Shown: piece by piece, positions 13,812 through 34,960 of the stretch | How the letters are laid out: each line of letters starts with the position of its first letter | How positions within the stretch are numbered: the first letter of the stretch is position 1 | Assembly: GCF_056712565.1 (NCBI RefSeq) | Contig: NZ_CM160072.1 | Reading direction: 5' to 3' (one strand) | Length of the DNA: 64,000 nucleotides | Program-made: the position numbers and the translations under genes | Notes under the pieces: model-generated | Database searches by the model: none | Told to the model about the DNA's origin: nothing | Seen by the model: the letters and a program-made list of their open reading frames with translations, nothing else

Positions 13812-14675
13812 ATGATCCGCAGTATGACCGCCTACGCCCGGCGTGAAATCAAGGGTGAATGGGGGAGCGCAACCTGGGAAATGCGCTCGGTAAACCAGCG
13901 TTATCTGGAAACTTACTTTCGTCTGCCGGAGCAGTTCCGTAGCCTTGAACCTGTCGTTCGCGAGCGTATTCGTTCTCGCCTGACGCGCGGTAAAGTGGAA
14001 TGTACCCTGCGCTATGAGCCAGATGTTAGCGCGCAAGGTGAGCTGATCCTCAACGAAAAACTGGCTAAACAGCTGGTAACTGCCGCGAACTGGGTAAAAA
14101 TGCAGAGCGACGAAGGAGAAATCAACCCGGTTGATATTCTACGCTGGCCGGGCGTGATGGCAGCCCAGGAGCAAGATCTCGACGCGATTGCAGCTGAAAT
14201 TCTCGCGGCGTTGGATGGCACCCTGGATGACTTTATCATCGCGCGCGAAACCGAAGGTCAGGCGCTGAAAGTGTTGATTGAGCAGCGTCTGGAAGGCGTC
14301 ACCGCCGAAGTGGTCAAAGTCCGCGCCCATATGCCGGAAATCCTGCAATGGCAGCGTGAGCGTCTGGTAGCGAAGCTGGAAGATGCTCAGGTGCAACTGG
14401 AAAACAACCGTCTGGAGCAGGAGTTGGTTCTGCTGGCACAACGAATTGACGTTGCCGAAGAACTGGACCGCCTCGAAGCGCATGTCAAAGAGACCTACAA
14501 CATTCTGAAGAAAAAAGAAGCGGTTGGCCGTCGTCTGGACTTTATGATGCAGGAGTTCAACCGCGAGTCGAACACTCTTGCTTCGAAATCTATCAATGCC
14601 GAAGTGACGAATTCTGCCATCGAGCTGAAAGTGTTGATTGAGCAGATGCGCGAGCAGATCCAGAATATCGAATAA
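13812..14675 (+). CDS. yicC: YicC-family protein (UPF0701; YicC/YloC-type endoribonuclease family)
   Basis: 287-aa ORF MIRSMTAYARREIKGEWGSATWEMRSVNQRYLETYFRLPEQFR..., recognised as YicC. Confidence 0.85.
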   Translation: MIRSMTAYARREIKGEWGSATWEMRSVNQRYLETYFRLPEQFRSLEPVVRERIRSRLTRGKVECTLRYEPDVSAQGELILNEKLAKQLVTAANWVKMQSDEGEINPVDILRWPGVMAAQEQDLDAIAAEILAALDGTLDDFIIARETEGQALKVLIEQRLEGVTAEVVKVRAHMPEILQWQRERLVAKLEDAQVQLENNRLEQELVLLAQRIDVAEELDRLEAHVKETYNILKKKEAVGRRLDFMMQEFNRESNTLASKSINAEVTNSAIELKVLIEQMREQIQNIE

Positions 14676-14712
14676 GCTATCAGCAAAAATCACCAAGCAG
14701 CAAAAAACCATA

Positions 14713-14740
14713 AAGCCCGCGAAATGTCGGGCTTTTTTGT
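14713..14740 (+). terminator. rho-independent terminator of yicC
   Basis: aagcccgcgaaatgtcgggcttttttgt: 7-bp GC-rich stem, 7-nt loop, T-run. Confidence 0.75.
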
Positions 14741-14782
14741 TATCATGAGCTATCATAACGACGCAACAAAGCGCACAATATG

Positions 14783-14806
14783 CGTGTACATAGAGGTGTA
14801 CATAAT
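14783..14806. repeat. left boundary repeat of integrative element (putative attL or integrase arm-type sites): cgtgtacatagaggtgtacataat
   Basis: Matches 34696..34719 at 22 of 24 positions in direct orientation; contains two 12-bp units with a TGTACA palindromic core; additional degenerate copies at 14814..14836. Confidence 0.6.
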
Positions 14807-14863
14807 GACTTTCATGTACATTGCTTTATGTACACACCCATATTCGATATTCAGGTATTCGCA

Positions 14864-16132
14864 ATGCCAAAACTCACAGATATGCAGATCCGCGCATGGA
14901 TAAAGGCGGGAGACAGATTTGATGGCAAGGCAGACGGCAACGGCCTTTATATTTGCTACCCCAAAAACTACACAGTCCCGTTCTGGCGATTCCGATATAA
15001 GCTCGCAGGAAAACAGCGGGCTATGGTTATCGGCTCTTACTCCGAACTGTCACTATCAAAAGCCAGAGAAATAGCAAAAGAGCTGTCAGCCAGAGTTGCT
15101 CTTGGCTATGACGTAGCAGCAGAAAAACAGGAACGAAAAGCTGAAGCACTGGCAAAAATGGAGGCTGAGAAAAACGCCATGCGCGTTTCAGATCTGGCCG
15201 CCGAATACTTCGAGCGACAGATACTTCCGAGATGGAAACATCCCGATATCCTTCGCCGGAGAATTGATAAGGATATTAACCCCTGCATTGGGCATATGAA
15301 GGTAGAGGACGTTAAGCCACGCCACATTGACGACATGTTGAAAGGTATCGTTGACCGAGGAGCACCAACGATAGCAACAGATGTATTACGCTGGACACGC
15401 CGTATCTTTGACTATGGGATAAAACGCCACGCTCTGGAGATAAACCCTTGTTCAGCGTTTGAAGTATCTGATGCTGGTGGTAAAGAGGTTTCCCGCGACC
15501 GTTGGCTAACTCGCGATGAGCTTATCAGGCTATTCGAGGCTATGCGCACCGCAAAAGGATTCAGCCGCCAGAACGAACTGACATTTAAGCTATTGCTGGC
15601 ACTATGCGTTCGTAAGATGGAGTTATGCGCCGCACGATGGGAAGAGTTTGATTTAGATGGTGCGGTATGGCATTTGCCGGAAGAACGCAGCAAAAACGGA
15701 GACCCTATTGATATACCTCTACCTTCTCCTGCCGTTGAATGGTTGAGAGAGCTACACACCTTTTCATGTAATAGCGCATGGGTGCTTCCAGCCAGGAAGA
15801 TGCAAAACAGAATGATCCCACATATTCAGGAAAGCACTTTACCCGTAGCACTGGCTAAGGTTCGCGCCGAAATGCCGGATGTGCCTAATTTCACGATTCA
15901 CGACTTCCGGCGTACCGCACGTACTCATTTAGCAGCATTGGGTGTTGATCCTGTCGTAGCGGAACGATGCCTCAATCATCGCATTAAGGGTGTGGAGGGG
16001 ATTTATAACCGCCATCAGTATTTTGATGAGCGTAAAGCTGCGCTGGCACAGTGGGCTGATCTGCTGGTGGCACTGGAAAGCGGGAAAGACTACAACGTAA
16101 CGCCATTCGATAAAGCCCGGAGGCAAATGTGA
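14864..16132 (+). CDS. int: tyrosine site-specific integrase, P4-type (N-terminal arm-binding domain plus catalytic domain)
   Basis: 422 aa from ATG 14864 (MPKLTDMQIRAWIKAGDRFDGKADGNGLYIC...WRFRYKLAGKQR); C-terminal R..HDFRRT...Y catalytic signature (HDFRRTARTHL, IYNRHQY). Confidence 0.85.
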   Translation: MPKLTDMQIRAWIKAGDRFDGKADGNGLYICYPKNYTVPFWRFRYKLAGKQRAMVIGSYSELSLSKAREIAKELSARVALGYDVAAEKQERKAEALAKMEAEKNAMRVSDLAAEYFERQILPRWKHPDILRRRIDKDINPCIGHMKVEDVKPRHIDDMLKGIVDRGAPTIATDVLRWTRRIFDYGIKRHALEINPCSAFEVSDAGGKEVSRDRWLTRDELIRLFEAMRTAKGFSRQNELTFKLLLALCVRKMELCAARWEEFDLDGAVWHLPEERSKNGDPIDIPLPSPAVEWLRELHTFSCNSAWVLPARKMQNRMIPHIQESTLPVALAKVRAEMPDVPNFTIHDFRRTARTHLAALGVDPVVAERCLNHRIKGVEGIYNRHQYFDERKAALAQWADLLVALESGKDYNVTPFDKARRQM

Positions 16133-16779
16133 ACAACATCTTGAGAAAATCGCCAATCGAACGGCTTTGTTCATCTGTATCGATTACCCCTCATGAAATG
16201 GCTGTGGCCTTGGCTGGCCTAAACCCATCTATGCGCATTAGCGATGTGCCTGAGGAAAATTTCGAATATGTCGATTTTGTCAGAACTCATCTTGCCAGAG
16301 CTATCAAGGTGTACAGAGGTGAAAAAACTAGTAAAGACGAGCCTTGCCATGCCCTTGATATTTTCTTAGCTTCTTACCCATTTATTGACACAAATACACC
16401 AGAAATAATTGTTCAGAAAATATCAGAAGCGATTGATGATTTGCGTGGCACCAAGGGCTGGGAAGAAAAAGCCCGAAACCTTGGAGGACTCCAGTTAGTA
16501 AACTACATCAAAGAAACCAACCGCAGCGGACGTGGGCAGCATAGAAAGCAGGATGAGGAAAACGGGACAATGAAAATGATGGGGTTGATAGTACATCTGC
16601 TGATAAAAAAATCAGGCTCATCTTCCTACATCCAAAATGGGAAACCTAATCGCACAGCTATATACCGTGACATAGAAACCTTAATCAAGGATGAAGGGAT
16701 ATCCCATAAAGGAATAGCAAAAGCCACATTCCTAGAAAAAATCTCACGGGCTTTATTAGCTGTCCACGATCTCGACTAA
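16129..16779 (+). CDS. hypothetical protein, translationally coupled to int (GTG start overlapping int stop)
   Basis: 216-aa ORF starting inside the ATGTGA at the int stop; no family recognised. Confidence 0.5.
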   Translation: MNNILRKSPIERLCSSVSITPHEMAVALAGLNPSMRISDVPEENFEYVDFVRTHLARAIKVYRGEKTSKDEPCHALDIFLASYPFIDTNTPEIIVQKISEAIDDLRGTKGWEEKARNLGGLQLVNYIKETNRSGRGQHRKQDEENGTMKMMGLIVHLLIKKSGSSSYIQNGKPNRTAIYRDIETLIKDEGISHKGIAKATFLEKISRALLAVHDLD

Positions 16780-17250
16780 TCACTTTTCACGCCCCTCCAA
16801 AGCAATGGCGGGGCATTACCTGTTTACCCATCTCCACCAGCATAGATAATTCTATGCCTAGCCATTGCTATATCTGTTCGGCTTAGTTCATCTGTAATCA
16901 CCCCATCTCTAAAAGATACGCCAGCTATCATTAGCCATTTTAAGCCATCATGAGCCATTATAAACCGACTCAACCAATTGAATAATAAAAGATAAAAGGA
17001 AATGTAAAAACATGATGAATGACGATGAAAGATATAACTCTTTGATAAAACAATGATTTTTTAAACTGGTAACTAATTGAAAATAAAGAAAATAATTATC
17101 CCACCTGCATTTGCAATCTTTCAGTGGATCGGTATTTTTTCAATAGATTTATAATTTCTTTCAATAGATTCTAGTCTTAATAGAAATACTGTATGGGCAA
17201 CCACTAAACTTTAAGTAACTTCATGAGCTATCAGAGAGGTTACTAGAGAT

Positions 17251-17469
17251 ATGACAGCACACAAGCCAGCATCATCAGCTATCCCAACAACTGGATACAT
17301 CCGTCGCTTTCGCATGCCGGAATTGCTAGGTGTTTCACTGCCTACTATTGATAGATGGGTTAAAAATGGCACTCTTCCACGCCCAGTGAAGCTAACAGAT
17401 AACGTGACTGCGTTTGATGCGGTGGAAATTAATAACTGGCTGGCAGAACGCCGAAACACATCAGCCTGA
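17251..17469 (+). CDS. alpA: AlpA-family phage regulatory protein / excisionase-like HTH protein
   Basis: 72-aa ORF; RFRMPELLGVSLPTIDRWVKNGTLPRPVKL is the typical AlpA/Xis-type HTH signature. Confidence 0.8.
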   Translation: MTAHKPASSAIPTTGYIRRFRMPELLGVSLPTIDRWVKNGTLPRPVKLTDNVTAFDAVEINNWLAERRNTSA

Positions 17470-23260: not shown

Positions 23261-23383
23261 GCGGGTTATGCGGGTTATCCTGTGCATAAGTTAATTAACT
23301 GCATGATTAAAAAGGAAATCAATAACCCGCACGTAACCCGCAAAACGGCAGTTATAACCCGCAAATGTGCGATTGTAACCCGC
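23261..23383. repeat. iteron-like cluster 1: two direct GCGGGTTAT copies (23261..23278) plus four inverted (A/G)TAACCCGC copies (23322..23383); candidate origin
   Basis: Read directly from sequence; between the replication protein gene and ssb. Confidence 0.7.
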
Positions 23384-24800: not shown

Positions 24801-25166
24801 CTAAAACCCTGTACCGAAGAGCGGCGGCGCGATGGGGTGAAGTAATGCAGTTGGGAAACTGATAAGGAACGGTATTACATATCAATGCGACGACTGGAAT
24901 GTTCCAGGAAGGCACAGAGGCCACCGAAGCAACCGGATAATTTAGAAGACCTGAAACGGTCGCTTAAACGCACTGAAAAAGAAATGGGGATAGATGGGAT
25001 CGGGAAATCAGTATGGCGTAACTACCAGAAGTAAGCACAGAGCCGGAGCAATCCGGCTTTTTTTGGGGCTGAAATCAATCAATCTGTTTTTGTGATAGAA
25101 ATATGTTTATCTACCACTTTTTCAGATCAATAATGTGCATAGTTTAGTCAGTAAGAGGAAATTGCT

Positions 25167-25469: not shown

Positions 25470-28001
25470 ATGCCAGTCGTACCAACAGTATCCGGACGTC
25501 AGGTTGAGAGCCGTGGAGTTCAGTCAGCAGGCTTGCAGACGTTTTCTCAGCCAGGTATTAGTGATGCTTTTGTTCGTGCAGGAGCAGAGGCAATTGATGT
25601 TCTGGGTCAGGCAAAACAGCGTGCCAATATTGCCTTGGTTCAGGAGGCATCCCTTAAACTCAGTCAGACAGGCAGTGATCTGCTGAATAATCCTGAAACA
25701 GGATTGCTTAACCTGAAAGGGAAAAATGCTATTGGAAAAGGCCATGAGTATACGCAGCAGTTTGATGCTCAGGTCGAACAACTGGCTATGTCGCTGCCGG
25801 ATGAACAGGCCCGTAATGCTTTCATGCAGCAGGCACAGCAGCAGCGCATTCAGTTCACTACGCAGGCCGGGCGGTACGAGATCGGGCAAATAAATGCCTA
25901 CGAAGAAGGCCAGTTTCAGGCTACGCTGCTGAACAATGGTAAAAATGCCGCAGCATTGTATGGCGACAACGCCGCATACGTATTGGCTAATAAGCAAACT
26001 TTCCAGCAAATTGAGGAGTACGGCATTGCGCATGGCTGGAGCGACGAGCAGATTCGGGCCAGGAAAATCGAGTTTAAAGAAGCAACAGCAAAAGCAACTG
26101 CTCAAAATGCTATTGGAGCAAACTATCTTCAGGTAAGACAGCAAAACGGCGAGTTAAGCGATACTGCTGCTGGAGCTCGCCGTGCTGTAGCAGATAGTGG
26201 ATCTTCCGATCGTACCCGCGGTATACGCAACAATAACCCCGGCAATCTTGAATACAGCAAAACTAATCCGTGGGTTGGGCAGACTGGTGATGATGGTCGC
26301 TTTGCTAAATTCGAAACACCTGAACACGGTATTCGTGCATTAGGGCGGAACCTGATGTCGTATCAGCGGCAGGGTATTGATACCGTCAGCGAGATAATTA
26401 ATCGCTGGGCACCGCCTACTGATAAAAATGACACTATGTCGTATATCAAAGCAGTGTGCGAACAACTTGGCGTTTCTGCTGATGATCCTATAGATGCATC
26501 TAATCCGGATACCCTGAAGGCGCTTTGTGCAGCCATTATCCATCATGAAAACGGTAGCCAGCCATACAGTGATCAGCAGTTAACTGCAGGTGTTAGTGCT
26601 GCGCTGGGGCTTTCTCAGCTACCGACAAAAAATAAACGTTATACCGGTGTAGCCTGGTTCGATGCTTTAAGTGAATCGGATCAGGCCAGCGTGTTGCGAC
26701 AGACTGATGCACTAGCCAGACAACAGCAGGCTGAATATAAAACGATGCTCGACAGCCAGGTTCGCGATGCGACAGCTGCGTATATGCGTGGCGTTGAATT
26801 TCCTAACCCACCAGGTGAGGCTGATTTTATTGCAGCTTATGGCGTCAGAGAAGGAAACCTGCGATATACCGAGTTCAGAAATACGCAGATCGCCGGACAG
26901 TATATAGGCTCTTTCCGCAACATGCCGACAAGCAGCATTACCGCATATGTTGAGCAATTGCGCCCGGATACTGGTGAAACAGGGGAGGGGTATGCGTCTC
27001 GTGCGAAGTTATTCGACCGGGTATCGGCGGCAGCCACGAAGGTAATAACCCAGAGGCAGAATAATCCGTTTAGTGCAGCGGTGGAAATCGGAGCCTATAA
27101 GCCGATCACCAGCAACAACCCTGACGACATCACTGCCGAGGTGGCTAACCGTTTCTCGTCGCAGGAAAGCTTACGCGCGTTGGGAATTAATGCCCCAATC
27201 CTCAACAGTGAAGAGGCGGCTGCGCTGGCACAGCAGGTGCGCGGCACTCAAAACGTTGACCAGACAATTAAACTGTTGCAGAGCATGGGGGAAAAGCTAC
27301 CTGCGCCAGCAATACGGCAGGTGGCATCTGTAATTGCTCCGAACAGTGCAGCAACAGCCTATTCTGCGCTGCTGCTGGGCACGCCGGATAATCAGTACGA
27401 TAACACCAGGCCGTCGATCCCATATAGTCAGTTCATCGGGTATAAGCCGACGATGAACAAGTACGACGTTGCAAAGGTTATTCTTTCCGGTGACCAACTA
27501 CTGAATCCGACGAAGGCTATGAAGAATGCGGGCATAACTCCGGTACAGTTGCCGAGCGAAGATAAAATGAAGCGCGCTTTCGACGAACAGGTTGGTAATG
27601 CATTTGCCCGTAACCCAGAGACGCGCCAGATCAGTTATAGCCTTTTCAAAGCCGCTTACGCAGGAATCGCTTATCAGTCTGGTAATGCGTCTATGACGAG
27701 CACAGATGCGGTTAACTCCGATGTGGCGGAGAAAGCTGCGCAGTACGCAACAGGCGGTGTATACAAGAGATTTAATGGTGGTGATGTTGTAATGCCTTTC
27801 GGCATGGATGAATCCACTTTCAAAGATCGCTATACCACATCAGCGAAACAAGCACTGAAAGATGCCGGACTTAACGTAAATGCAGTGTCAAACTTCACAC
27901 CAGTTAATATCGGCAATAACCGGTATCGGCTGGTAAATGGTAGCGGACGCTGGGCAACAGATCCCAGAACCAATGAAGCTATTGTCGTGAGGGTTGAATA
28001 A
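25470..28001 (+). CDS. large hypothetical protein A (843 aa), Q/A-rich, with conserved central segment GIRNNNPGNLEYSKTNPWVGQ...WAPPTDKNDT...HHENG
   Basis: Strong SD (aggagg) 8 nt upstream of ATG; stop overlaps next start (TAATG). Composition resembles phage internal virion / ejection or polyvalent proteins; no family confidently assigned. Confidence 0.6.
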   Translation: MPVVPTVSGRQVESRGVQSAGLQTFSQPGISDAFVRAGAEAIDVLGQAKQRANIALVQEASLKLSQTGSDLLNNPETGLLNLKGKNAIGKGHEYTQQFDAQVEQLAMSLPDEQARNAFMQQAQQQRIQFTTQAGRYEIGQINAYEEGQFQATLLNNGKNAAALYGDNAAYVLANKQTFQQIEEYGIAHGWSDEQIRARKIEFKEATAKATAQNAIGANYLQVRQQNGELSDTAAGARRAVADSGSSDRTRGIRNNNPGNLEYSKTNPWVGQTGDDGRFAKFETPEHGIRALGRNLMSYQRQGIDTVSEIINRWAPPTDKNDTMSYIKAVCEQLGVSADDPIDASNPDTLKALCAAIIHHENGSQPYSDQQLTAGVSAALGLSQLPTKNKRYTGVAWFDALSESDQASVLRQTDALARQQQAEYKTMLDSQVRDATAAYMRGVEFPNPPGEADFIAAYGVREGNLRYTEFRNTQIAGQYIGSFRNMPTSSITAYVEQLRPDTGETGEGYASRAKLFDRVSAAATKVITQRQNNPFSAAVEIGAYKPITSNNPDDITAEVANRFSSQESLRALGINAPILNSEEAAALAQQVRGTQNVDQTIKLLQSMGEKLPAPAIRQVASVIAPNSAATAYSALLLGTPDNQYDNTRPSIPYSQFIGYKPTMNKYDVAKVILSGDQLLNPTKAMKNAGITPVQLPSEDKMKRAFDEQVGNAFARNPETRQISYSLFKAAYAGIAYQSGNASMTSTDAVNSDVAEKAAQYATGGVYKRFNGGDVVMPFGMDESTFKDRYTTSAKQALKDAGLNVNAVSNFTPVNIGNNRYRLVNGSGRWATDPRTNEAIVVRVE

Positions 28002-30061
28002 TGTCTGATGTTTTTTCTTTGGCTCCAGAAGGTCAGGCATGGATTGACGACAAAACAGTTGCCAACCCAGCAAGGCCAGAAGACTACGATCCGACTCCCT
28101 TCCAGGGTTCAGGTACTGCACTTTTGAGCGGCGTGGCGGAGGGGGCTCTCGGTCTCGCGCAGTCTGCCGTCGGATTCAGCAAGCGCCTGATTAGCGATCC
28201 GGCATTTACCGCAGACGTGGCACCGACTGTTAATATTTTTCGGGAGATGTTCCCTGATGCTGACAAAACACTGAATGATACATACGACACGATCGGAAAA
28301 CAGTTACAGGATGCCCGCAGCTATGTGAAGCCTGATGCAGGCAGTCAGGGAATGGCGGCTGAGGTATTAAATGAGCTTGGTAAATTTGTTCCTGCAATCG
28401 GAACAACTATGTTTGGCGGTCCCCTCATCGGCGCTGCTACAGCTTTCAGTTCTACGTATGAGCAGTCCTATCAGGATTTTAAAGGGAAGGGAGTAGACGA
28501 GGCTACGGCGCGTAACCTGGCAACGCAGCAAAGCCTTTTCAATGCTGTGGGTATGGCCTTACCCGCTGCCGTCGGCACCACACTGGCAACGCGCATTGCC
28601 TCAGGTGTGGCAATCAACACCGGATTCGGTGGACTGAACCGTTACTCTGTCGGCGCAACACTGGAGGAAAAAGGCTACACGGAGATGGCAAAACAGTACC
28701 GGGTATTTGACGGTCAGGCGATGTTAGTCGATGCCGTTTTAGGCGGGGTCTTTGGTGGCGTTCATCACCTGACTACCCATAATAACCATGATGGTACAGA
28801 GTCGAACATTTCTGCAGAAGAAATAAAATCAACTTTTGGTGAACATTATCAGCAATCTCCTGATGGTAACATTGAGTCAATGGTTCGTGATTTATCTGAT
28901 TCAGGAGTAATAGAACTTATTAATGAACCAGCAATAAAAAATAGTGATGGAGAAATACTTCTGAATAAAGGTCATGTGACAGTAGCTTCTGGAAAAGAAC
29001 CAATAATAAGAATAAATATTAATGGATTAAAAGATCATGAAGAACTGTTAGAAACCCTTCATCACGAGGCGCTTCATCTTGAGCAGCGCCATTACCCTGA
29101 CTGGAAGGCCAGAAAGCTAGCTAATGCTGTACTTAAATCTGCAAACAAGCATTCTGACTATCCTGAATTTGCATATGGGATGTCACAATATTATGAATAT
29201 AAGAAAAGGGGTGAGTACCCTGAAACATATCCTGAGTGGTTGTACGCTGAAGAAGTTGCCGCACATGCAGTAAATCCATCTCTAAAGACAAGCGTTTCAT
29301 CATGGGAAAAAATTATTTCAGGTTTTAAAGCCTATATATTCAGATACAGTGGTATTCAGGTTGGAACCGTTACACCTGAGCAGTTACGGTTACTCGTAAG
29401 TATGCGTCTTCGCAATATGAAACTGGAAGCCGCAGTCGAAAAAGTTTTTGGTATCCGGGCAAGGGAAAGAATAAAACCAAGCGATATTGATGCAGCCCAC
29501 ATTTTGAATGAGGGGCTTCATTACGATATTGAATCGTCACCAGTGCTTCACACCAGCAATGAGAGCATCAACAGCCATGTTGACGCCATGGATGAAGCAT
29601 ACAGGCAACTTAATGATGGTCAGCCTGTAAATGTTGGGGGGATGGCGCGAGGGCTTGATGGTCCATTGCGATCAGATATATCTGATACTTACCAAGAGCA
29701 ATACCATGAAATACAAAAGGTTTTTGAAGAAAATGGTGTCAGATATGAAACATCATCAGAGCCAATTAGTGAATCGCCTGTCCCTCGTGCTGAAAGTGCT
29801 TTCTCATCGGCTGGTGAACACAGAGGGGACGTCAGCGTTGATCCAGATACAGGGCAGGTTCTCTCATCCAACAGCTATGACCTTATGGCTGCCAGAGACA
29901 TGGCTGTTGCCAATCCTGAGCTGACTATAGCTCACCCGGAAACCGGAAACCCGACAAAACTTTCTGATCTCCTGGCTGAGTTGGATGAACAGATTAAGAC
30001 AGTCCAGAACGAATCGAAGGTTTATTCTGTAGCGGCAGCGTGCTTCTTGAGGAACCCATAA
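28001..30061 (+). CDS. large hypothetical protein B (686 aa) with glycine-zipper-like hydrophobic N-terminal region and HExxH zinc-metallopeptidase motif (LHHEALHLEQRH)
   Basis: Translationally coupled on both sides; HEALH motif encoded within a conspicuously AT-rich segment (about 28790..29350). Confidence 0.6.
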   Translation: MSDVFSLAPEGQAWIDDKTVANPARPEDYDPTPFQGSGTALLSGVAEGALGLAQSAVGFSKRLISDPAFTADVAPTVNIFREMFPDADKTLNDTYDTIGKQLQDARSYVKPDAGSQGMAAEVLNELGKFVPAIGTTMFGGPLIGAATAFSSTYEQSYQDFKGKGVDEATARNLATQQSLFNAVGMALPAAVGTTLATRIASGVAINTGFGGLNRYSVGATLEEKGYTEMAKQYRVFDGQAMLVDAVLGGVFGGVHHLTTHNNHDGTESNISAEEIKSTFGEHYQQSPDGNIESMVRDLSDSGVIELINEPAIKNSDGEILLNKGHVTVASGKEPIIRININGLKDHEELLETLHHEALHLEQRHYPDWKARKLANAVLKSANKHSDYPEFAYGMSQYYEYKKRGEYPETYPEWLYAEEVAAHAVNPSLKTSVSSWEKIISGFKAYIFRYSGIQVGTVTPEQLRLLVSMRLRNMKLEAAVEKVFGIRARERIKPSDIDAAHILNEGLHYDIESSPVLHTSNESINSHVDAMDEAYRQLNDGQPVNVGGMARGLDGPLRSDISDTYQEQYHEIQKVFEENGVRYETSSEPISESPVPRAESAFSSAGEHRGDVSVDPDTGQVLSSNSYDLMAARDMAVANPELTIAHPETGNPTKLSDLLAELDEQIKTVQNESKVYSVAAACFLRNP

Positions 30062-32817
30062 TGAAACAGGCATGTGTTGAAGCTATTGCGCAGACACTTG
30101 GTCGCCAGCCAAAGGCTGATGAGCTGAAAAATATCGAAGATCGTATCAAAGAAGCAGTGCAACATGTGCACAGAAAGAATGCAAAAGAAGGCAAAAGTGG
30201 TATTCCTGATGCTCAAACATACATGGATGCTGCAGAACTGGTACGCCAGCGTGTGGTTCATGATGTGTACAAGAAAAGACAGCGTGTTGCCCAGAATGCG
30301 ATCGCCATCAGTAAAATTACTGACACTCTCGATGCTAACATCCCGCCTGATCAGCAGACACCTGTTAATTTGCAGCAGTTTATTTTTGCTGGCCGACGAT
30401 CGAGAGACAAAGCTGATATCTCCGTTGCTTCTGCTGAAGAGCTTGCAATTGGGGCATATCAGGACTGGTCCCGTCAGCTCAGTGCTGAACTTCTAAAAGC
30501 AGGTGATGACGTCCGCAAATTCTTCGAGCAGAGCAGGGCGCTTGGAGAGCAGCGGTTTCGGAGTGTATTCGACAGGCAGGCGGCAAAGTCTGCACAACTC
30601 CAGATCCTGAAAGAAATTTATGGCGAAGATACCGGGAATCCCCTGGCGAAGAAAATTGCACAGATTTGGAAGGATGTAACAGGCCGTGTTCGTCATGAGA
30701 TGAACGACAACGGCTTTGACATAGGCCTGCGAGAAGACTGGCATACGCCATATGTGGATGATGCTGACCTTATTCGCAATGCCGGGCGCGAAGAATGGCT
30801 GGCATCGTTACCAGTGGCAGAGCAAGCTACAGCACGTCTTTCAGGTCGCCAGCCACCGATTGAGTTTGCCCGCCAGAAATGGGTTGATGACGCTTACAAC
30901 ACGCAGGATCGCAGCAATTACGTTAATCCTGACGGCAGCATTATGAATGACGTCGAGTACCGTCAGGCACTGGAAGCGATCTTTGAAACGAAGGCCACTG
31001 ATGGGGCAAACAAAATTGAGCCCGGTACATTTATGGGAGCCGGAGGAATAAAGAGCCGTGGTTCTCAGCACAGGGTGATGGCGTTCAAGGATGCGCAGTC
31101 ACACTTCGCCTATATGGAGCGATACACTCAGCAGCCGCTGGTGGGGGTGATGATGTCGCACCTGCAATCATCATCCAGGGATTTGGGCGTCGTTAAAGCC
31201 TTTGGTCCGGACGCCGAAAGAAACTTTTCCCTGGTACTGGATCGCATCTATAAGCGCGCAGTAACAGGCGGGAAACGCAAAAAAGAAATGGAGGATGAGG
31301 CCAAATTAGTAGCCCGTATGTTCAACTCAATGGCTGGCCTAAATGGTGTCGCTTCATCGAGTGTGTTCTCTTCAGCTGTTGGTGGTCTGCGTAACCTGAT
31401 GACCAGCGCCATGCTTGGCACCAGCGTACTGACAGCAACCAGCGACCAGGCAATTATGCGGGCAAATGCGCAGGCGCTGGGCTTTACCCGTGGTGGAATG
31501 CGGCTTTCCGTTAACACTATCAAAAACCTGTTTAGTGGAGATGCCAAAAAGGCGAATGCTGAACTCGGTCTGCTGGTGGATTCACATGCTGCTGTGGTTT
31601 CGAAAATGGGCGGGTTTGACTTGTCTCGCGGCATAACTGGCTGGTTCGCAGAGAAGACACTGAAGTGGTCCGGGCTGATCGCTATGGACCGCGCAAACAA
31701 AGCGTCGTTTGGTCTCCTGATGTACAAAAACATTGGCGAGCTGACCAGAAAATTTAAGACGCTGGACGATATGAAAGGAACCGATAAAACCATTCTGGCT
31801 AACAAGGGATGGAGCAATGAGGACTGGGCCATCATGGCAGCGGCAGAACTCAGGCCGATGACTACTGCCGGGCATATGGGGATGACGCCAGACGCGATTT
31901 ACGCTGTGCCCGATAACGTAATCGCCGACATTATGGCAGACCGTATTACCCGGATTCGTGCCGGGAGTGAAAAGGCACTGGCAGCACTTGGAGATCTCCC
32001 TCCAGAACGCCTGAAACGGATGAAAGAAGCATTCGACGCTGAGGCTGAGCAGACCATCACGCGCATGATTCGTAATGCACGCGCTGAAGCAGCCCATAAA
32101 TTGCTGGGAATTACGCACGGTGAGATGACCAATGCTGTGACCACCGCTACGGGTATTGATACATATGCCCGTGATGATGCTGGCGAGTTAATGAAGAGCT
32201 TCATGCTCTTCAAAACAACCCCATTTGCTGGATTTCGGCAACTTGTTAACAGAACACGGGATTTGGACACCGTTCCGGCCATTAAATTTCTGGCCTCATA
32301 TATCGGGGGAACAACTCTTGCTGGTATGTTTGCGATCCAGATGAACAGTTTGTTAAATGGTAATGATCCGCTGGATATGACAAAACCAACCACATGGGTT
32401 CAGGCTTTACTGAAAGGTGGTTCGTTCGGTATCTACGGTGATTTTATTTTCCAGGACCATACGCAATATGGCTCCAGCATCGGTGCCACTATGGGTGGCC
32501 CTGTGTTGAGCTTTGCAGAGCAGTTAACAAAATTACTGATTACTAACCCACAGAAGGCTCTACAGGGTGAAGAAACATCATTCGGTGCCGATGCACTGAA
32601 AACAGCCCGCATGATCACCCCATTCGCAAACCTGTGGTATGCGAAAGCGATAACCAATCACCTGATATTGCAACAACTTCAGGAGATGGCAAACCCTGGT
32701 TACAATGATCGAGTAAGGGACCGCGCGCAACGGGAGTTCGACATAACGAGTTGGTGGGAACCGGGTGCTATTGCGCCACGTAGAGCACCGGATTTTGGAA
32801 AGGCGGTAGGGGAATGA
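30061..32817 (+). CDS. large hypothetical protein C (about 918 aa)
   Basis: ATG at 30061 overlaps stop of protein B (TAATG); ORF track offers an upstream GTG at 30040. Stop overlaps start of the next small ORF (ATGA). Confidence 0.6.
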   Translation: MKQACVEAIAQTLGRQPKADELKNIEDRIKEAVQHVHRKNAKEGKSGIPDAQTYMDAAELVRQRVVHDVYKKRQRVAQNAIAISKITDTLDANIPPDQQTPVNLQQFIFAGRRSRDKADISVASAEELAIGAYQDWSRQLSAELLKAGDDVRKFFEQSRALGEQRFRSVFDRQAAKSAQLQILKEIYGEDTGNPLAKKIAQIWKDVTGRVRHEMNDNGFDIGLREDWHTPYVDDADLIRNAGREEWLASLPVAEQATARLSGRQPPIEFARQKWVDDAYNTQDRSNYVNPDGSIMNDVEYRQALEAIFETKATDGANKIEPGTFMGAGGIKSRGSQHRVMAFKDAQSHFAYMERYTQQPLVGVMMSHLQSSSRDLGVVKAFGPDAERNFSLVLDRIYKRAVTGGKRKKEMEDEAKLVARMFNSMAGLNGVASSSVFSSAVGGLRNLMTSAMLGTSVLTATSDQAIMRANAQALGFTRGGMRLSVNTIKNLFSGDAKKANAELGLLVDSHAAVVSKMGGFDLSRGITGWFAEKTLKWSGLIAMDRANKASFGLLMYKNIGELTRKFKTLDDMKGTDKTILANKGWSNEDWAIMAAAELRPMTTAGHMGMTPDAIYAVPDNVIADIMADRITRIRAGSEKALAALGDLPPERLKRMKEAFDAEAEQTITRMIRNARAEAAHKLLGITHGEMTNAVTTATGIDTYARDDAGELMKSFMLFKTTPFAGFRQLVNRTRDLDTVPAIKFLASYIGGTTLAGMFAIQMNSLLNGNDPLDMTKPTTWVQALLKGGSFGIYGDFIFQDHTQYGSSIGATMGGPVLSFAEQLTKLLITNPQKALQGEETSFGADALKTARMITPFANLWYAKAITNHLILQQLQEMANPGYNDRVRDRAQREFDITSWWEPGAIAPRRAPDFGKAVGE

Positions 32818-34156: not shown

Positions 34157-34311
34157 TTTGCGGGTTATTTTGGGGCGTTTGCGGGTTATTTGGGATGTTT
34201 TGCGGGTTATGCGATGCTTGAATAATGAACAGTGCATTTTGCAACATATTGATACTAAAGAACAAAAAATAGTTAGCACACTAAGATAACCCGGTAACCC
34301 GCATAACCCGC
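34157..34311. repeat. iteron-like cluster 2: three direct TTTGCGGGTTAT copies at 21-bp spacing (34157..34210) plus three contiguous inverted TAACCCG(C/G) copies (34286..34311)
   Basis: Read directly; same 9-mer as cluster 1, about 11 kb away near the right end of the element. Confidence 0.7.
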
Positions 34312-34695: not shown

Positions 34696-34719
34696 CGTGT
34701 ACATAAGGGTGTACATAAT
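34696..34719. repeat. right boundary repeat of integrative element (putative attR or arm-type sites): cgtgtacataagggtgtacataat
   Basis: 22 of 24 identity with 14783..14806, direct orientation. Confidence 0.6.
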
Positions 34720-34960
34720 CAAAAACCGCATTAGAAAGAAACCAGATACAATGCGGCATTGAAGCCAACACTCTACAAACAGATCCAGAACATTGAATAA
34801 CTCGTAACGCCAATTCTTCCTTTTCAGCCTTCACAAATGCCGCCCACTCAAACAGAGCGGCATTTTTCCTCCCCGCAACATTCAATTCTGTTTTGCGTGC
34901 CTGCTCCAGATTTTGCGATGTTTTTTTGCCCAGCGCAGTGAGAACGTGAGATACTCACAA

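What the first reader, a model, noticed from the sequence alone, without database searches (positions are those of the whole stretch)
16129..16779. Unknown 216-aa ORF translationally fused to the integrase stop codon
The GTG start overlaps the int ATGTGA, implying obligate co-expression with the integrase. No family recognised. Integrase-proximal positions in satellites are hotspots for accessory genes such as defence, exclusion or directionality factors. The downstream 470-bp AT-rich gap (16780..17250) may hold promoters.
Basis: inference. Interest (0 to 1): 0.45.

Follow-up and report, generated by a model that had tools for sequence, protein, structure and literature searches.

The report
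Integrase-coupled orphan gene of phage satellites
This is a real, well-conserved 216-aa gene of unknown function that sits directly after the integrase gene in a group of enterobacterial phage satellites. It is a fixed part of the element's integration and regulation module, not swappable defence cargo, and its predicted fold matches nothing known.

Summary
The ORF at 16129-16779 starts with a GTG that overlaps the integrase stop codon by 4 nt (GTGA). A GGAGG Shine-Dalgarno sequence lies 5 nt upstream. RefSeq annotates the same ORF as WP_001059729.1, "hypothetical protein".

The ORF lies in a ~20.1-kb PICI-type satellite inserted into the 3' end of yicC in E. coli.

It has no Pfam, NCBIfam or PADLOC match. 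It matches only PHROG 30524, which has no known function. A confident AlphaFold model (pLDDT 89.8, all-alpha) has no meaningful neighbour in PDB, AFDB50 or BFVD outside its own family.

The gene is not hotspot cargo. In 15 of 15 distinct variants examined, a homologue (23-83% identity) lies directly after a P4-type integrase on the same strand. In 11 of the 15 the junction is between a 4-nt overlap and a 2-nt gap. These variants come from PICI, capsid-forming PICI-like and P4-like satellites. Where variable cargo occurs, it is inserted after this gene.

Among close relatives the gene's sequence tracks AlpA, not the integrase.

Function remains inferred. My best guess (confidence about 0.3) is a non-enzymatic regulator made together with integrase that keeps the AlpA induction switch off.

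Interest is moderate. It is an undescribed third component of a known module.

The parts
14655..14675 (.). attL core. A 21-bp copy of the 3' end of yicC, duplicated at attR 34780-34800. These mark the ends of the ~20.1-kb satellite.
   Evidence: BLAST of the uninterrupted K-12 yicC-dinD region against the window shows K-12 bases 121-141 present at both junctions.
14784..14835 (.). Probable integrase arm-type sites (GTGTACATA x3 exact, plus a fourth TGTACA) directly upstream of int. Two more lie at 34697-34717 near attR.
   Evidence: The same layout is seen in seven related islands. Assignment to Int is an inference from the P4 attP annotation.
14864..16132 (+). int, a P4-type tyrosine integrase (422 aa).
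   Evidence: RefSeq annotation. Homologues carry Arm-DNA-bind_3, Phage_int_M and Phage_integrase.
16119..16123 (+). GGAGG Shine-Dalgarno sequence, 5 nt upstream of the GTG start, inside the end of int.
   Evidence: Read directly from the sequence.
16129..16779 (+). The 216-aa ORF (WP_001059729.1; PHROG 30524 family). All-alpha, nine helices. The most conserved block is residues 131-160, which includes the motif SGRGxHRKxDE.
16791..16857 (+). Two stem-loops just after the ORF stop codon, with no U-tract. A G+C-rich hairpin at this position recurs in related islands.
   Evidence: RNA fold gives -26.4 kcal/mol, z = -3.4.
16923..16962 (+). Four tandem 10-bp repeats: AGCTATCATT AGCCATTTTA AGCCATCATG AGCCATTATA.
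   Evidence: Comparable 10-bp-phased arrays occur in 11 related islands but not in L030, L009 or L029. What binds them is unknown.
16963..17116 (.). AT-rich tract (GC about 0.28) between the 10-bp array and the repeats next to alpA.
17117..17186 (+). Three to four copies of TTTCA(A/G)T(A/G)GAT at about 21-bp spacing, directly upstream of alpA. Probably activator (AlpA) sites at the alpA promoter.
   Evidence: The motif is conserved upstream of alpA in the related loci. In L030 and L009 a different triple repeat stays with alpA, not with the ORF. Assignment to AlpA is an inference from the positive autoregulation reported in PMC6092414.
17251..17469 (+). alpA, an HTH_17/Phage_AlpA regulator (72 aa).

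Best explanation
The ORF encodes a small, non-enzymatic, all-alpha protein. It is a fixed third component of the int-alpA 'integration zone' in a sub-class of enterobacterial phage satellites (PICI, capsid-forming PICI-like and some P4-like elements).

Proposed mechanism:
- It is transcribed from the integrase promoter and translated by coupling or re-initiation at the int stop codon. It is therefore made whenever integrase is made, that is at establishment and at a low level in the integrated, quiescent state.
- I propose it acts as a negative regulator, a quiescence or immunity factor, of the adjacent AlpA-driven induction switch.
- It would do this either by binding DNA in the switch region downstream of it, or by binding AlpA. 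This would stop the self-activating alpA promoter from firing without a helper phage.

Shown: the gene, its coupling to int, its conservation and synteny, its orphan fold, and its co-variation with AlpA rather than Int.

Inferred: co-transcription with int, any regulatory activity, its sign, and its target.
For: 1. Invariant position. In 15 of 15 distinct variants the homologue lies directly 3' of a P4-type integrase on the same strand. In 11 of the 15 the junction is between a 4-nt overlap and a 2-nt gap. This holds even where the integrases are only 24-29% identical.

2. It behaves as part of the regulatory module.
- Among seven close islands, ORF identity correlates with AlpA identity (Spearman 0.59) and not with Int identity (-0.11).
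- Int 88% / ORF 36% in L007, but Int 65% / ORF 71% / AlpA 86% in L025.
- Nucleotide identity drops at the int/ORF boundary in L007.
- Such allele mosaicism next to a conserved integrase resembles phage immunity regions.

3. The conservation pattern is not that of an enzyme. There is no invariant catalytic-type residue. The conserved positions are Gly, Pro and basic residues, with a basic hairpin tip (SGRGxHRKxDE) and a C-terminal KG[IL]xK[SA]TF motif that resembles HTH recognition helices. Family pI is mostly 8.3-9.5.

4. The other repeat sets in the island are already accounted for. Replication iterons are TAACCCGC and probable Int arm sites are GTGTACATA. This leaves the 10-bp array and an AGCTATCA motif without an assigned binder. 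AGCTATCA occurs 5 times on the + strand within 14675-17233; the whole window has 7 matches against 1.3 expected.

5. The literature states that no global repressor is known for Gram-negative PICIs and that alpA is positively autoregulated (PMC6092414). A threshold-setting antagonist is therefore a logical gap.
Against: - The C-terminal 'HTH-like' motif sits in a helix / 8-residue loop / helix arrangement, not a classical HTH.
- The 10-bp arrays are not universal. They are absent after the ORF in L030, L009 and L029.
- Within the closest subgroup the AlpA DNA-binding region is identical, so AlpA cannot be excluded as the binder of the arrays.
- Satellites without this gene exist. EcCIMP1, which is inducible and mobilised by its helper phage (PMC11773190), and P4 have no such gene between int and alpA/vis, as does the cryptic prophage CP4-57. 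EcCICFT073 appears to lack it too: the text of PMC6092414 calls the gene after alpA 'ORF3'. It therefore cannot be a general requirement of AlpA-type satellites.
- The only invariant linkage is to int, not to alpA.
- There are no expression or mutant data.
Confidence: 0.3

Rival explanations
1. It is an integrase accessory factor. A protein made in fixed ratio with Int would take part in the recombination complex itself, for example as an architectural or stabilising partner, or in control of integration versus excision.
For: Adjacency to int is the single invariant feature (15 of 15 variants). Start-stop overlap is common, which is typical of physically interacting partners. The gene stays next to int even when alpA is 3.4 kb away (L030) or not detected (L008). 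The most conserved block (residues 131-160) could contact a conserved surface of Int.
Against: Among close relatives there is no co-variation with Int: Int 84-91% identical against ORF 31-69%, Spearman -0.11. Islands at the same attB (yicC) with near-identical arm sites and att layout carry very different alleles. Related P4-type integrases work without such a partner (P4, EcCIMP1). AlpA already fills the directionality role (PMC6092414, PMC11773190).
Confidence: 0.2
2. It is an accessory 'moron': a single-gene anti-phage, exclusion or anti-satellite function expressed constitutively from the int promoter. This is what the first reader suspected.
For: In canonical P4-like satellites the region 3' of int is a documented defence hotspot, and P4's own gop-beta-cII there protects against lambda and P1 (PMC9122126). 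Defence-type genes do land at this locus (Abi_alpha and Mrr_cat in L009). The protein evolves faster than Int (dN about 2-5 times higher). It is an orphan with a narrow taxonomic range.
Against: It is conserved in position and architecture across three satellite classes. Variable cargo is inserted after it, not in its place. There is no PADLOC hit, no enzymatic or NTPase motif and no homology to P4 cII (hhalign probability 0.2%).
Confidence: 0.15
3. It is a replication, copy-number or plasmid-state maintenance factor that binds the 10-bp-phased repeats and AT-rich tract downstream. This region resembles the ori region of P4, which lies upstream of vis and contains three tandem 10-bp 'type 2' repeats.
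For: P4's annotated ori lies directly upstream of its alpA homologue vis and contains three tandem 10-bp repeats plus an AT-rich stretch. Eleven related islands have 10-bp arrays plus an AT-rich tract in the same relative position. A 12,152-bp circular record carries the same module.
Against: The island's real iterons (TAACCCGC) lie after the primase gene and at the right end, and they differ from the arrays. The arrays are absent in L030, L009 and L029 although the gene is present. No partition NTPase is nearby.
Confidence: 0.07

Closest known systems
Stl / Rpr master repressors of Gram-positive PICIs (SaPIs)
   Same: [quoted passage not shown] Both would be expressed in the quiescent island. 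Both are very divergent between islands that otherwise share modules. The role proposed here, holding the induction switch off, is the one Stl plays.
   Different: There is no sequence or fold similarity and no HTH was detected. The gene is not divergently arranged against the lytic operon; it is co-directional with alpA. It is absent from some functional Gram-negative PICIs. No repressor activity has been shown. This is a resemblance in how it might work, not family membership.
P4 cII and the gop-beta-cII / psu-int defence hotspot of P4-like satellites
   Same: The position is the same: the gene immediately 3' of a P4-type integrase, on the same strand. This is where P4-like elements carry anti-phage cargo (PMC9122126).
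   Different: It is not homologous to cII. Hotspot content is hypervariable, with more than 300 arrangements, whereas this family is constant at its position. There is no PADLOC match.
AlpA / Vis / Xis recombination directionality factors and regulators
   Same: It belongs to the same integration module and co-varies with AlpA. Overlap of a small gene with int recalls the lambda xis-int overlap (from my own knowledge of lambda).
   Different: It is 216 aa and all-alpha with a long helical hairpin, not a 60-100-aa winged helix. It has no HTH_17 or Phage_AlpA match. It lies downstream of int, not upstream. The module already contains AlpA.
PHROG 30524
   Same: Full-length profile match (residues 11-209 to profile positions 14-213 of 220, E = 3e-34). 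This is the only catalogued family that contains it.
   Different: The PHROG has no annotated function, so membership adds no mechanism.

Membership tests
PHROG 30524 (uncharacterised phage/satellite protein family) | Full-length match to the family profile. | tested here: met
   E = 3e-34, 119.5 bits, protein residues 11-209 to profile positions 14-213 of 220.
   Found in the window and in 14 further distinct variants.
   Alignment of 27 sequences. Invariant: P91, G136, G195. Nearly invariant: T90, G119, L123, R135, E143, K149, L154, I178, K204.
Gram-negative PICI (the host element) | Unidirectional int, alpA and primase genes; ori after the primase; size about 10-20 kb; site-specific insertion with duplicated att core. 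| tested here: met
   Annotation. Iterons after the primase gene. att cores at 14655-14675 and 34780-34800, giving ~20.1 kb. A circular 12.2-kb relative exists.
Gram-negative PICI (the host element) | Induction, excision and packaging that depend on a helper phage. | not testable with these tools
   Needs experiments. No helper was identified.
Excisionase / RDF (Xis, Vis, AlpA; HTH_17, Phage_AlpA) | Small winged-helix DNA-binding protein that matches these Pfam families. | tested here: not met
Known anti-phage defence systems (PADLOC-DB v2) | Match to a defence-protein model. | tested here: not met
   0 families at E <= 1.
Satellite defence-hotspot cargo | Gene content at the locus varies between otherwise related elements. 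| tested here: not met
   The same family sits at the same position in 15 of 15 variants. Variable genes sit downstream of it.
HTH-type phage/satellite repressors (CI, Cro, Stl-like) | Recognisable HTH DNA-binding domain. | tested here: not met
P4 cII (sce7726 family), the positional analogue in P4 | Sequence homology. | tested here: not met
   hhalign probability 0.2%. tblastn of the phage collection did not hit P4.

The most novel reading that the evidence does not exclude
The family is the missing negative regulator, or immunity determinant, of a large sub-class of AlpA-controlled Gram-negative satellites. It would be a functional counterpart of the SaPI Stl repressor but with an unrelated, previously unseen fold. 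It would be made together with integrase and hold the self-activating alpA switch off until a helper-phage signal overcomes it. Its divergent alleles at a shared attachment site would define immunity or helper-specificity types.
Probability: 0.15. Interest if true: 0.7.

Novelty: new variant of a known kind. Interest (0 to 1): 0.4.

Why it matters
How Gram-negative PICIs and their relatives stay silent, and how a helper phage switches alpA on, is an open question. [quoted passage not shown]

This work identifies a conserved gene that is tied to int, co-varies with AlpA, has an orphan fold and sits at the head of the switch region. None of the satellite papers I could read describes it. That gives a concrete, easily deleted candidate to test.

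The gene is widespread:
- By nucleotide search it is in at least 202 of 5,426 complete E. coli genomes.
- Further divergent alleles sit at ssrA and near leuX, each seen on at least 1,000 contigs or in clusters of more than 1,300 member sequences.
- It also occurs in Salmonella, Klebsiella, Citrobacter, Serratia, Pantoea and other genera.

Even if it turns out to be an Int cofactor or an exclusion factor, it would add a component to the standard map of these elements. It would also improve satellite annotation, because it marks the left border of a cargo insertion point.

Tried and rejected
1. Annotation by homology. Pfam on the protein and on 27 family members, NCBIfam, PADLOC, and PDB sequence searches with both a single sequence and a profile all gave nothing.

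3. Exhaustive phmmer over 1.84 billion representatives, and a profile search. Both found only 28 and 44 relatives. All are unnamed. The only 'domains' come from IS or integrase fusions.

4. The idea that the 10-bp arrays are the protein's operators, tested by co-variation.
- In favour: they differ from the primase iterons and the probable Int arm sites, and they travel with the int-ORF-alpA module when the primase differs (62% identity in L002).
- Against: the arrays are missing in L030, L009 and L029. In the closest subgroup the arrays share a core motif while the AlpA DNA-binding region is identical, so AlpA cannot be excluded.
- I therefore dropped it as evidence and kept it only as a lead.

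5. The idea that the conserved TCAATAGAT repeats are the protein's sites. I rejected this as a general claim. In L030 and L009 the equivalent triple repeat has a different sequence and stays with alpA, 3-4 kb from the ORF.

6. Homology to P4 cII, the gene after int in P4: none.

7. Identity with EcCIMP1_002, the gene between int and alpA in a studied PICI. It is not related. That locus has only a short ORF and no homologue.

8. The search for related loci with the diverse alignment failed because no stretch was conserved enough. The single-protein scan of viral contigs gave only six close loci.

9. Rfam search of the island at gathering threshold gave no RNA family.
Full report
**Where we are.** The window is E. 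coli chromosome. Positions 14700-17300 are 100% identical to several complete genomes, for example ExPEC XM NZ_CP025328.1. RefSeq annotation of that record gives the following order:
- slmA, pyrE, rph, yicC
- a tyrosine integrase, a hypothetical protein (WP_001059729.1), and an HTH regulator (AlpA-type)
- Rha, AntA/B and BRO-N proteins
- an Icd-like protein, DUF4222, a DUF927 primase/helicase, SSB, ProQ/FinO and PerC
- three large proteins
- dinD

Comparison with the uninterrupted K-12 yicC-dinD region shows that 21 bp of the 3' end of yicC are duplicated at 14655-14675 and 34780-34800. The element is therefore a ~20.1-kb island inserted into the end of yicC. Its gene order is that of a Gram-negative phage-inducible chromosomal island as described in PMC6092414 and PMC10111431: integration, Bro, replication and late zones.

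**The observation.** The ORF at 16129-16779 exists.
- Its GTG (16129-16131) overlaps the integrase stop TGA (16130-16132), so the two genes share the four bases GTGA.
- A GGAGG lies at 16119-16123, five bases upstream.
- The RefSeq pipeline calls the same start. Homologues that begin with ATG align from the same first residue.
- The simple promoter scan finds no promoter-like site on the + strand in the 3' part of int. Co-transcription with int is therefore plausible, but it is an inference.
- The gap to alpA is 471 bp with GC 0.34, falling to 0.28.

**What the protein is not.**
- It has no Pfam match, either alone or for any of 27 relatives, no NCBIfam match and no PADLOC match.
- PDB sequence searches, with a single sequence and with a profile, found nothing.
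- The only catalogued family is PHROG 30524, function unknown (E = 3e-34, full length).
- An AlphaFold2 model built on a 27-sequence alignment is confident (mean pLDDT 89.8; pTM 0.59). It is all-alpha with nine helices, including a long hairpin at 111-134/137-162.
- Foldseek against AFDB50 returns only uncharacterised members of the same family. Foldseek against BFVD returns nothing.
- On present evidence this is an orphan fold.

**The family.**
- An exhaustive phmmer search of 1.84 billion representatives finds 28 relatives. A profile search of 5.8 billion clusters finds 44.
- All named ones are 'hypothetical'. They come from Escherichia, Salmonella, Klebsiella, Citrobacter, Enterobacter, Serratia, Pantoea, Buttiauxella, Raoultella, Pectobacterium, Xenorhabdus, Erwinia and Gilliamella.
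- Nucleotide search finds two alleles in 202 of 5,426 complete E. coli genomes: 99% or more in 113 records and about 69% in 91 records, the latter including O157:H7. More divergent alleles are also abundant.
- Conserved positions are Gly, Pro and basic residues and short motifs: TPE, LGG..L, SGRGxHRKxDE at the hairpin tip, and KGxxKSTF near the C-terminus. The best conserved block is residues 131-160.
- This is not the pattern of an enzyme. Family pI is mostly 8.3-9.5.
- dN between relatives is 0.12-0.22 with saturated synonymous sites. The gene is therefore under purifying selection, although it changes 2-5 times faster than int.

**Genomic context.** This is the strongest result. In all 15 distinct variants whose surroundings I could read, the gene lies directly after a P4-type integrase on the same strand. 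The 15 variants are:
- the window
- the O157:H7 island at yicC
- islands at yicC in Serratia, Pantoea and other genomes
- an island next to the GTPase gene der
- an island at ssrA
- a P4-like element near leuX
- the induced 16.5-kb element vB_KppS-Ant, which carries capsid, portal and terminase genes
- metagenomic contigs, including the most distant relative (E = 7e-4)

The junction is a 4-nt overlap in six variants, a 1-nt overlap in two, a gap of 1-2 nt in three, and a gap of 9-98 nt in four. An AlpA/HTH_17 gene follows directly in twelve. It follows after inserted cargo in two: Abi_alpha and Mrr_cat in L009, and three unrelated genes in L030. In one (L008) none was detected downstream. The gene is thus a constant anchor next to int, and the variable slot is downstream of it. 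A 12,152-bp circular record in one assembly carries the same int-ORF-alpA module at 99.5% identity with different downstream genes. It is presumably an excised satellite.

**Which partner does it follow?** Among seven islands with close integrases, ORF identity tracks AlpA identity (Spearman 0.59) and not Int identity (-0.11).
- L007: Int 88%, ORF 36%, AlpA 59%.
- L025: Int 65% (a different attachment site), ORF 71%, AlpA 86%.
- In L007 nucleotide identity falls from about 77% to about 55% at the int/ORF boundary.

The pairs are not independent, so the P value is only indicative. Still, the pattern argues against tight co-evolution with Int. It favours membership of the regulatory module, with allele mosaicism like that of phage immunity regions.

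**The gap.**
- It contains four tandem 10-bp repeats (16923-16962), then an AT-rich tract, then three to four copies of TTTCAATAGAT at about 21-bp spacing just before alpA.
- Eleven related islands share this layout. The 10-bp arrays are partly island-specific, and the TCAATAGAT-type repeats are conserved.
- The arrays are not the replication iterons. Those are TAACCCGC, with six copies after the primase gene and five near the right end, an arrangement like P4 ori/crr.
- The arrays are not the probable Int arm sites either, which are GTGTACATA.
- I tested whether the arrays could be operators for the ORF and could not sustain the idea. They are absent after the ORF in L030, L009 and L029. In the closest subgroup they share a core motif while the AlpA DNA-binding region is identical.
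- The triple repeat next to alpA stays with alpA when cargo separates it from the ORF, and it changes sequence with a different AlpA. It is most simply the AlpA autoregulation site reported for EcCICFT073 (PMC6092414).
The alpA promoter and its upstream sites are there.

**Limits on generality.** Three elements have no such gene between int and alpA/vis: EcCIMP1, which is inducible and mobilised by its helper (PMC11773190), the cryptic prophage CP4-57, and P4. EcCICFT073 appears to lack it as well (text of PMC6092414). P4's positional analogue cII is not homologous. The satellite papers I could read define the integration zone as Int plus AlpA and do not mention this gene.

**Interpretation.** The gene is a core, not accessory, component of one type of int-alpA module.
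- I rank first (about 0.3) a non-enzymatic regulator made with Int that restrains the self-activating AlpA switch during establishment and quiescence.
- Second (about 0.2) is a recombination accessory factor. Its invariant linkage to int supports this, but the lack of co-variation with Int weakens it.
- Third (about 0.15) is a constitutive exclusion or defence function.
- Fourth (about 0.07) is a replication or maintenance role.

None of these is demonstrated. The experiments listed under next steps would separate them quickly.

**Verdict.** This is an undescribed, orphan-fold third member of a known satellite module. It is of moderate interest now, and of higher interest if it proves to be the negative regulator these elements are thought to lack.

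Noticed in passing
window 14655-14675 and 34780-34800: The satellite is inserted into the 3' end of yicC and rebuilds it. A 21-bp core is duplicated at both ends, giving an island of about 20.1 kb. The island supplies its own terminator hairpin at 14712-14735 just inside attL.
   Followed up: yes
window 23261-23383 and 34160-34311: There are two clusters of the 8-mer TAACCCGC: 6 copies after the primase gene and 5 near the right end. These account for 11 of the 12 matches in the window, against 1.6 expected. The two-part arrangement is like ori and crr of P4. Related islands use other iterons after their primase genes, including the exact P4 type-1 repeat TGTTCACC in L004 and L005.
   Followed up: partly
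window 14675, 14748, 16299, 16923, 17226: The 8-mer AGCTATCA occurs five times on the + strand within 2.6 kb (7 in the window against 1.3 expected). The sites are next to the attL core, between the terminator and the arm sites, inside the ORF, in the first unit of the 10-bp array, and in the alpA leader. A 13-nt stretch, TCATGAGCTATCA, is identical at 14744 and 17221. This may be the site of AlpA acting at both att and its own gene, as Vis does in P4. The binder was not determined.
   Followed up: partly
window 25470-32817: The three large genes of the island's late zone (843, 686 and 918 aa) match phage virion or internal/ejection protein families (phrog_992, phrog_1145, phrog_684; E down to 1e-298). 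They do not match defence models. They are probably late genes captured from a helper phage and could point to the helper.
   Followed up: partly
L002 (NZ_CP148430.1, whole 12,152-bp record): A circular 'plasmid' in a chicken E. coli assembly is a satellite. It carries the same int-ORF-alpA module (99.5% identity) but a different Bro zone and a 62%-identical primase. The same strain also has a chromosomal copy (H22). It looks like an excised or replicating island caught in the assembly.
   Followed up: partly
L018 versus L020 (IMG/VR contigs), 100-300 bp after the ORF stop: Two islands with identical ORF proteins differ in the copy number of their 10-bp repeats. TCCGTGCCAG is present 4 times against 2, and AGCGAGTCAT about once against 3 times. 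The arrays therefore expand and contract quickly.
   Followed up: no
L009 1963-4895 and L030 7995-10759: In two distant relatives, variable genes are inserted between this ORF and alpA. L009 has Abi_alpha, a 271-aa protein and an Mrr_cat nuclease. L030 has 390-aa, 179-aa and HHH_2 proteins. This marks a cargo insertion point just downstream of the conserved gene.
   Followed up: partly
protein cluster of the window ORF: The 90%-identity cluster that holds this 216-aa protein has a 431-aa representative and many 417-447-aa integrases as members. Int-ORF fusion calls across the overlapping ATGTGA junction have probably merged the two families in that database.
   Followed up: no
window ~24809-25034 and 60580-60674: RefSeq marks a frameshifted PerC-family regulator gene in the island. 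Separately, tRNA-Sec (selC) lies at 60580-60674 with a RhuM-family gene just after it, a second classic island insertion site in the same window.
   Followed up: no
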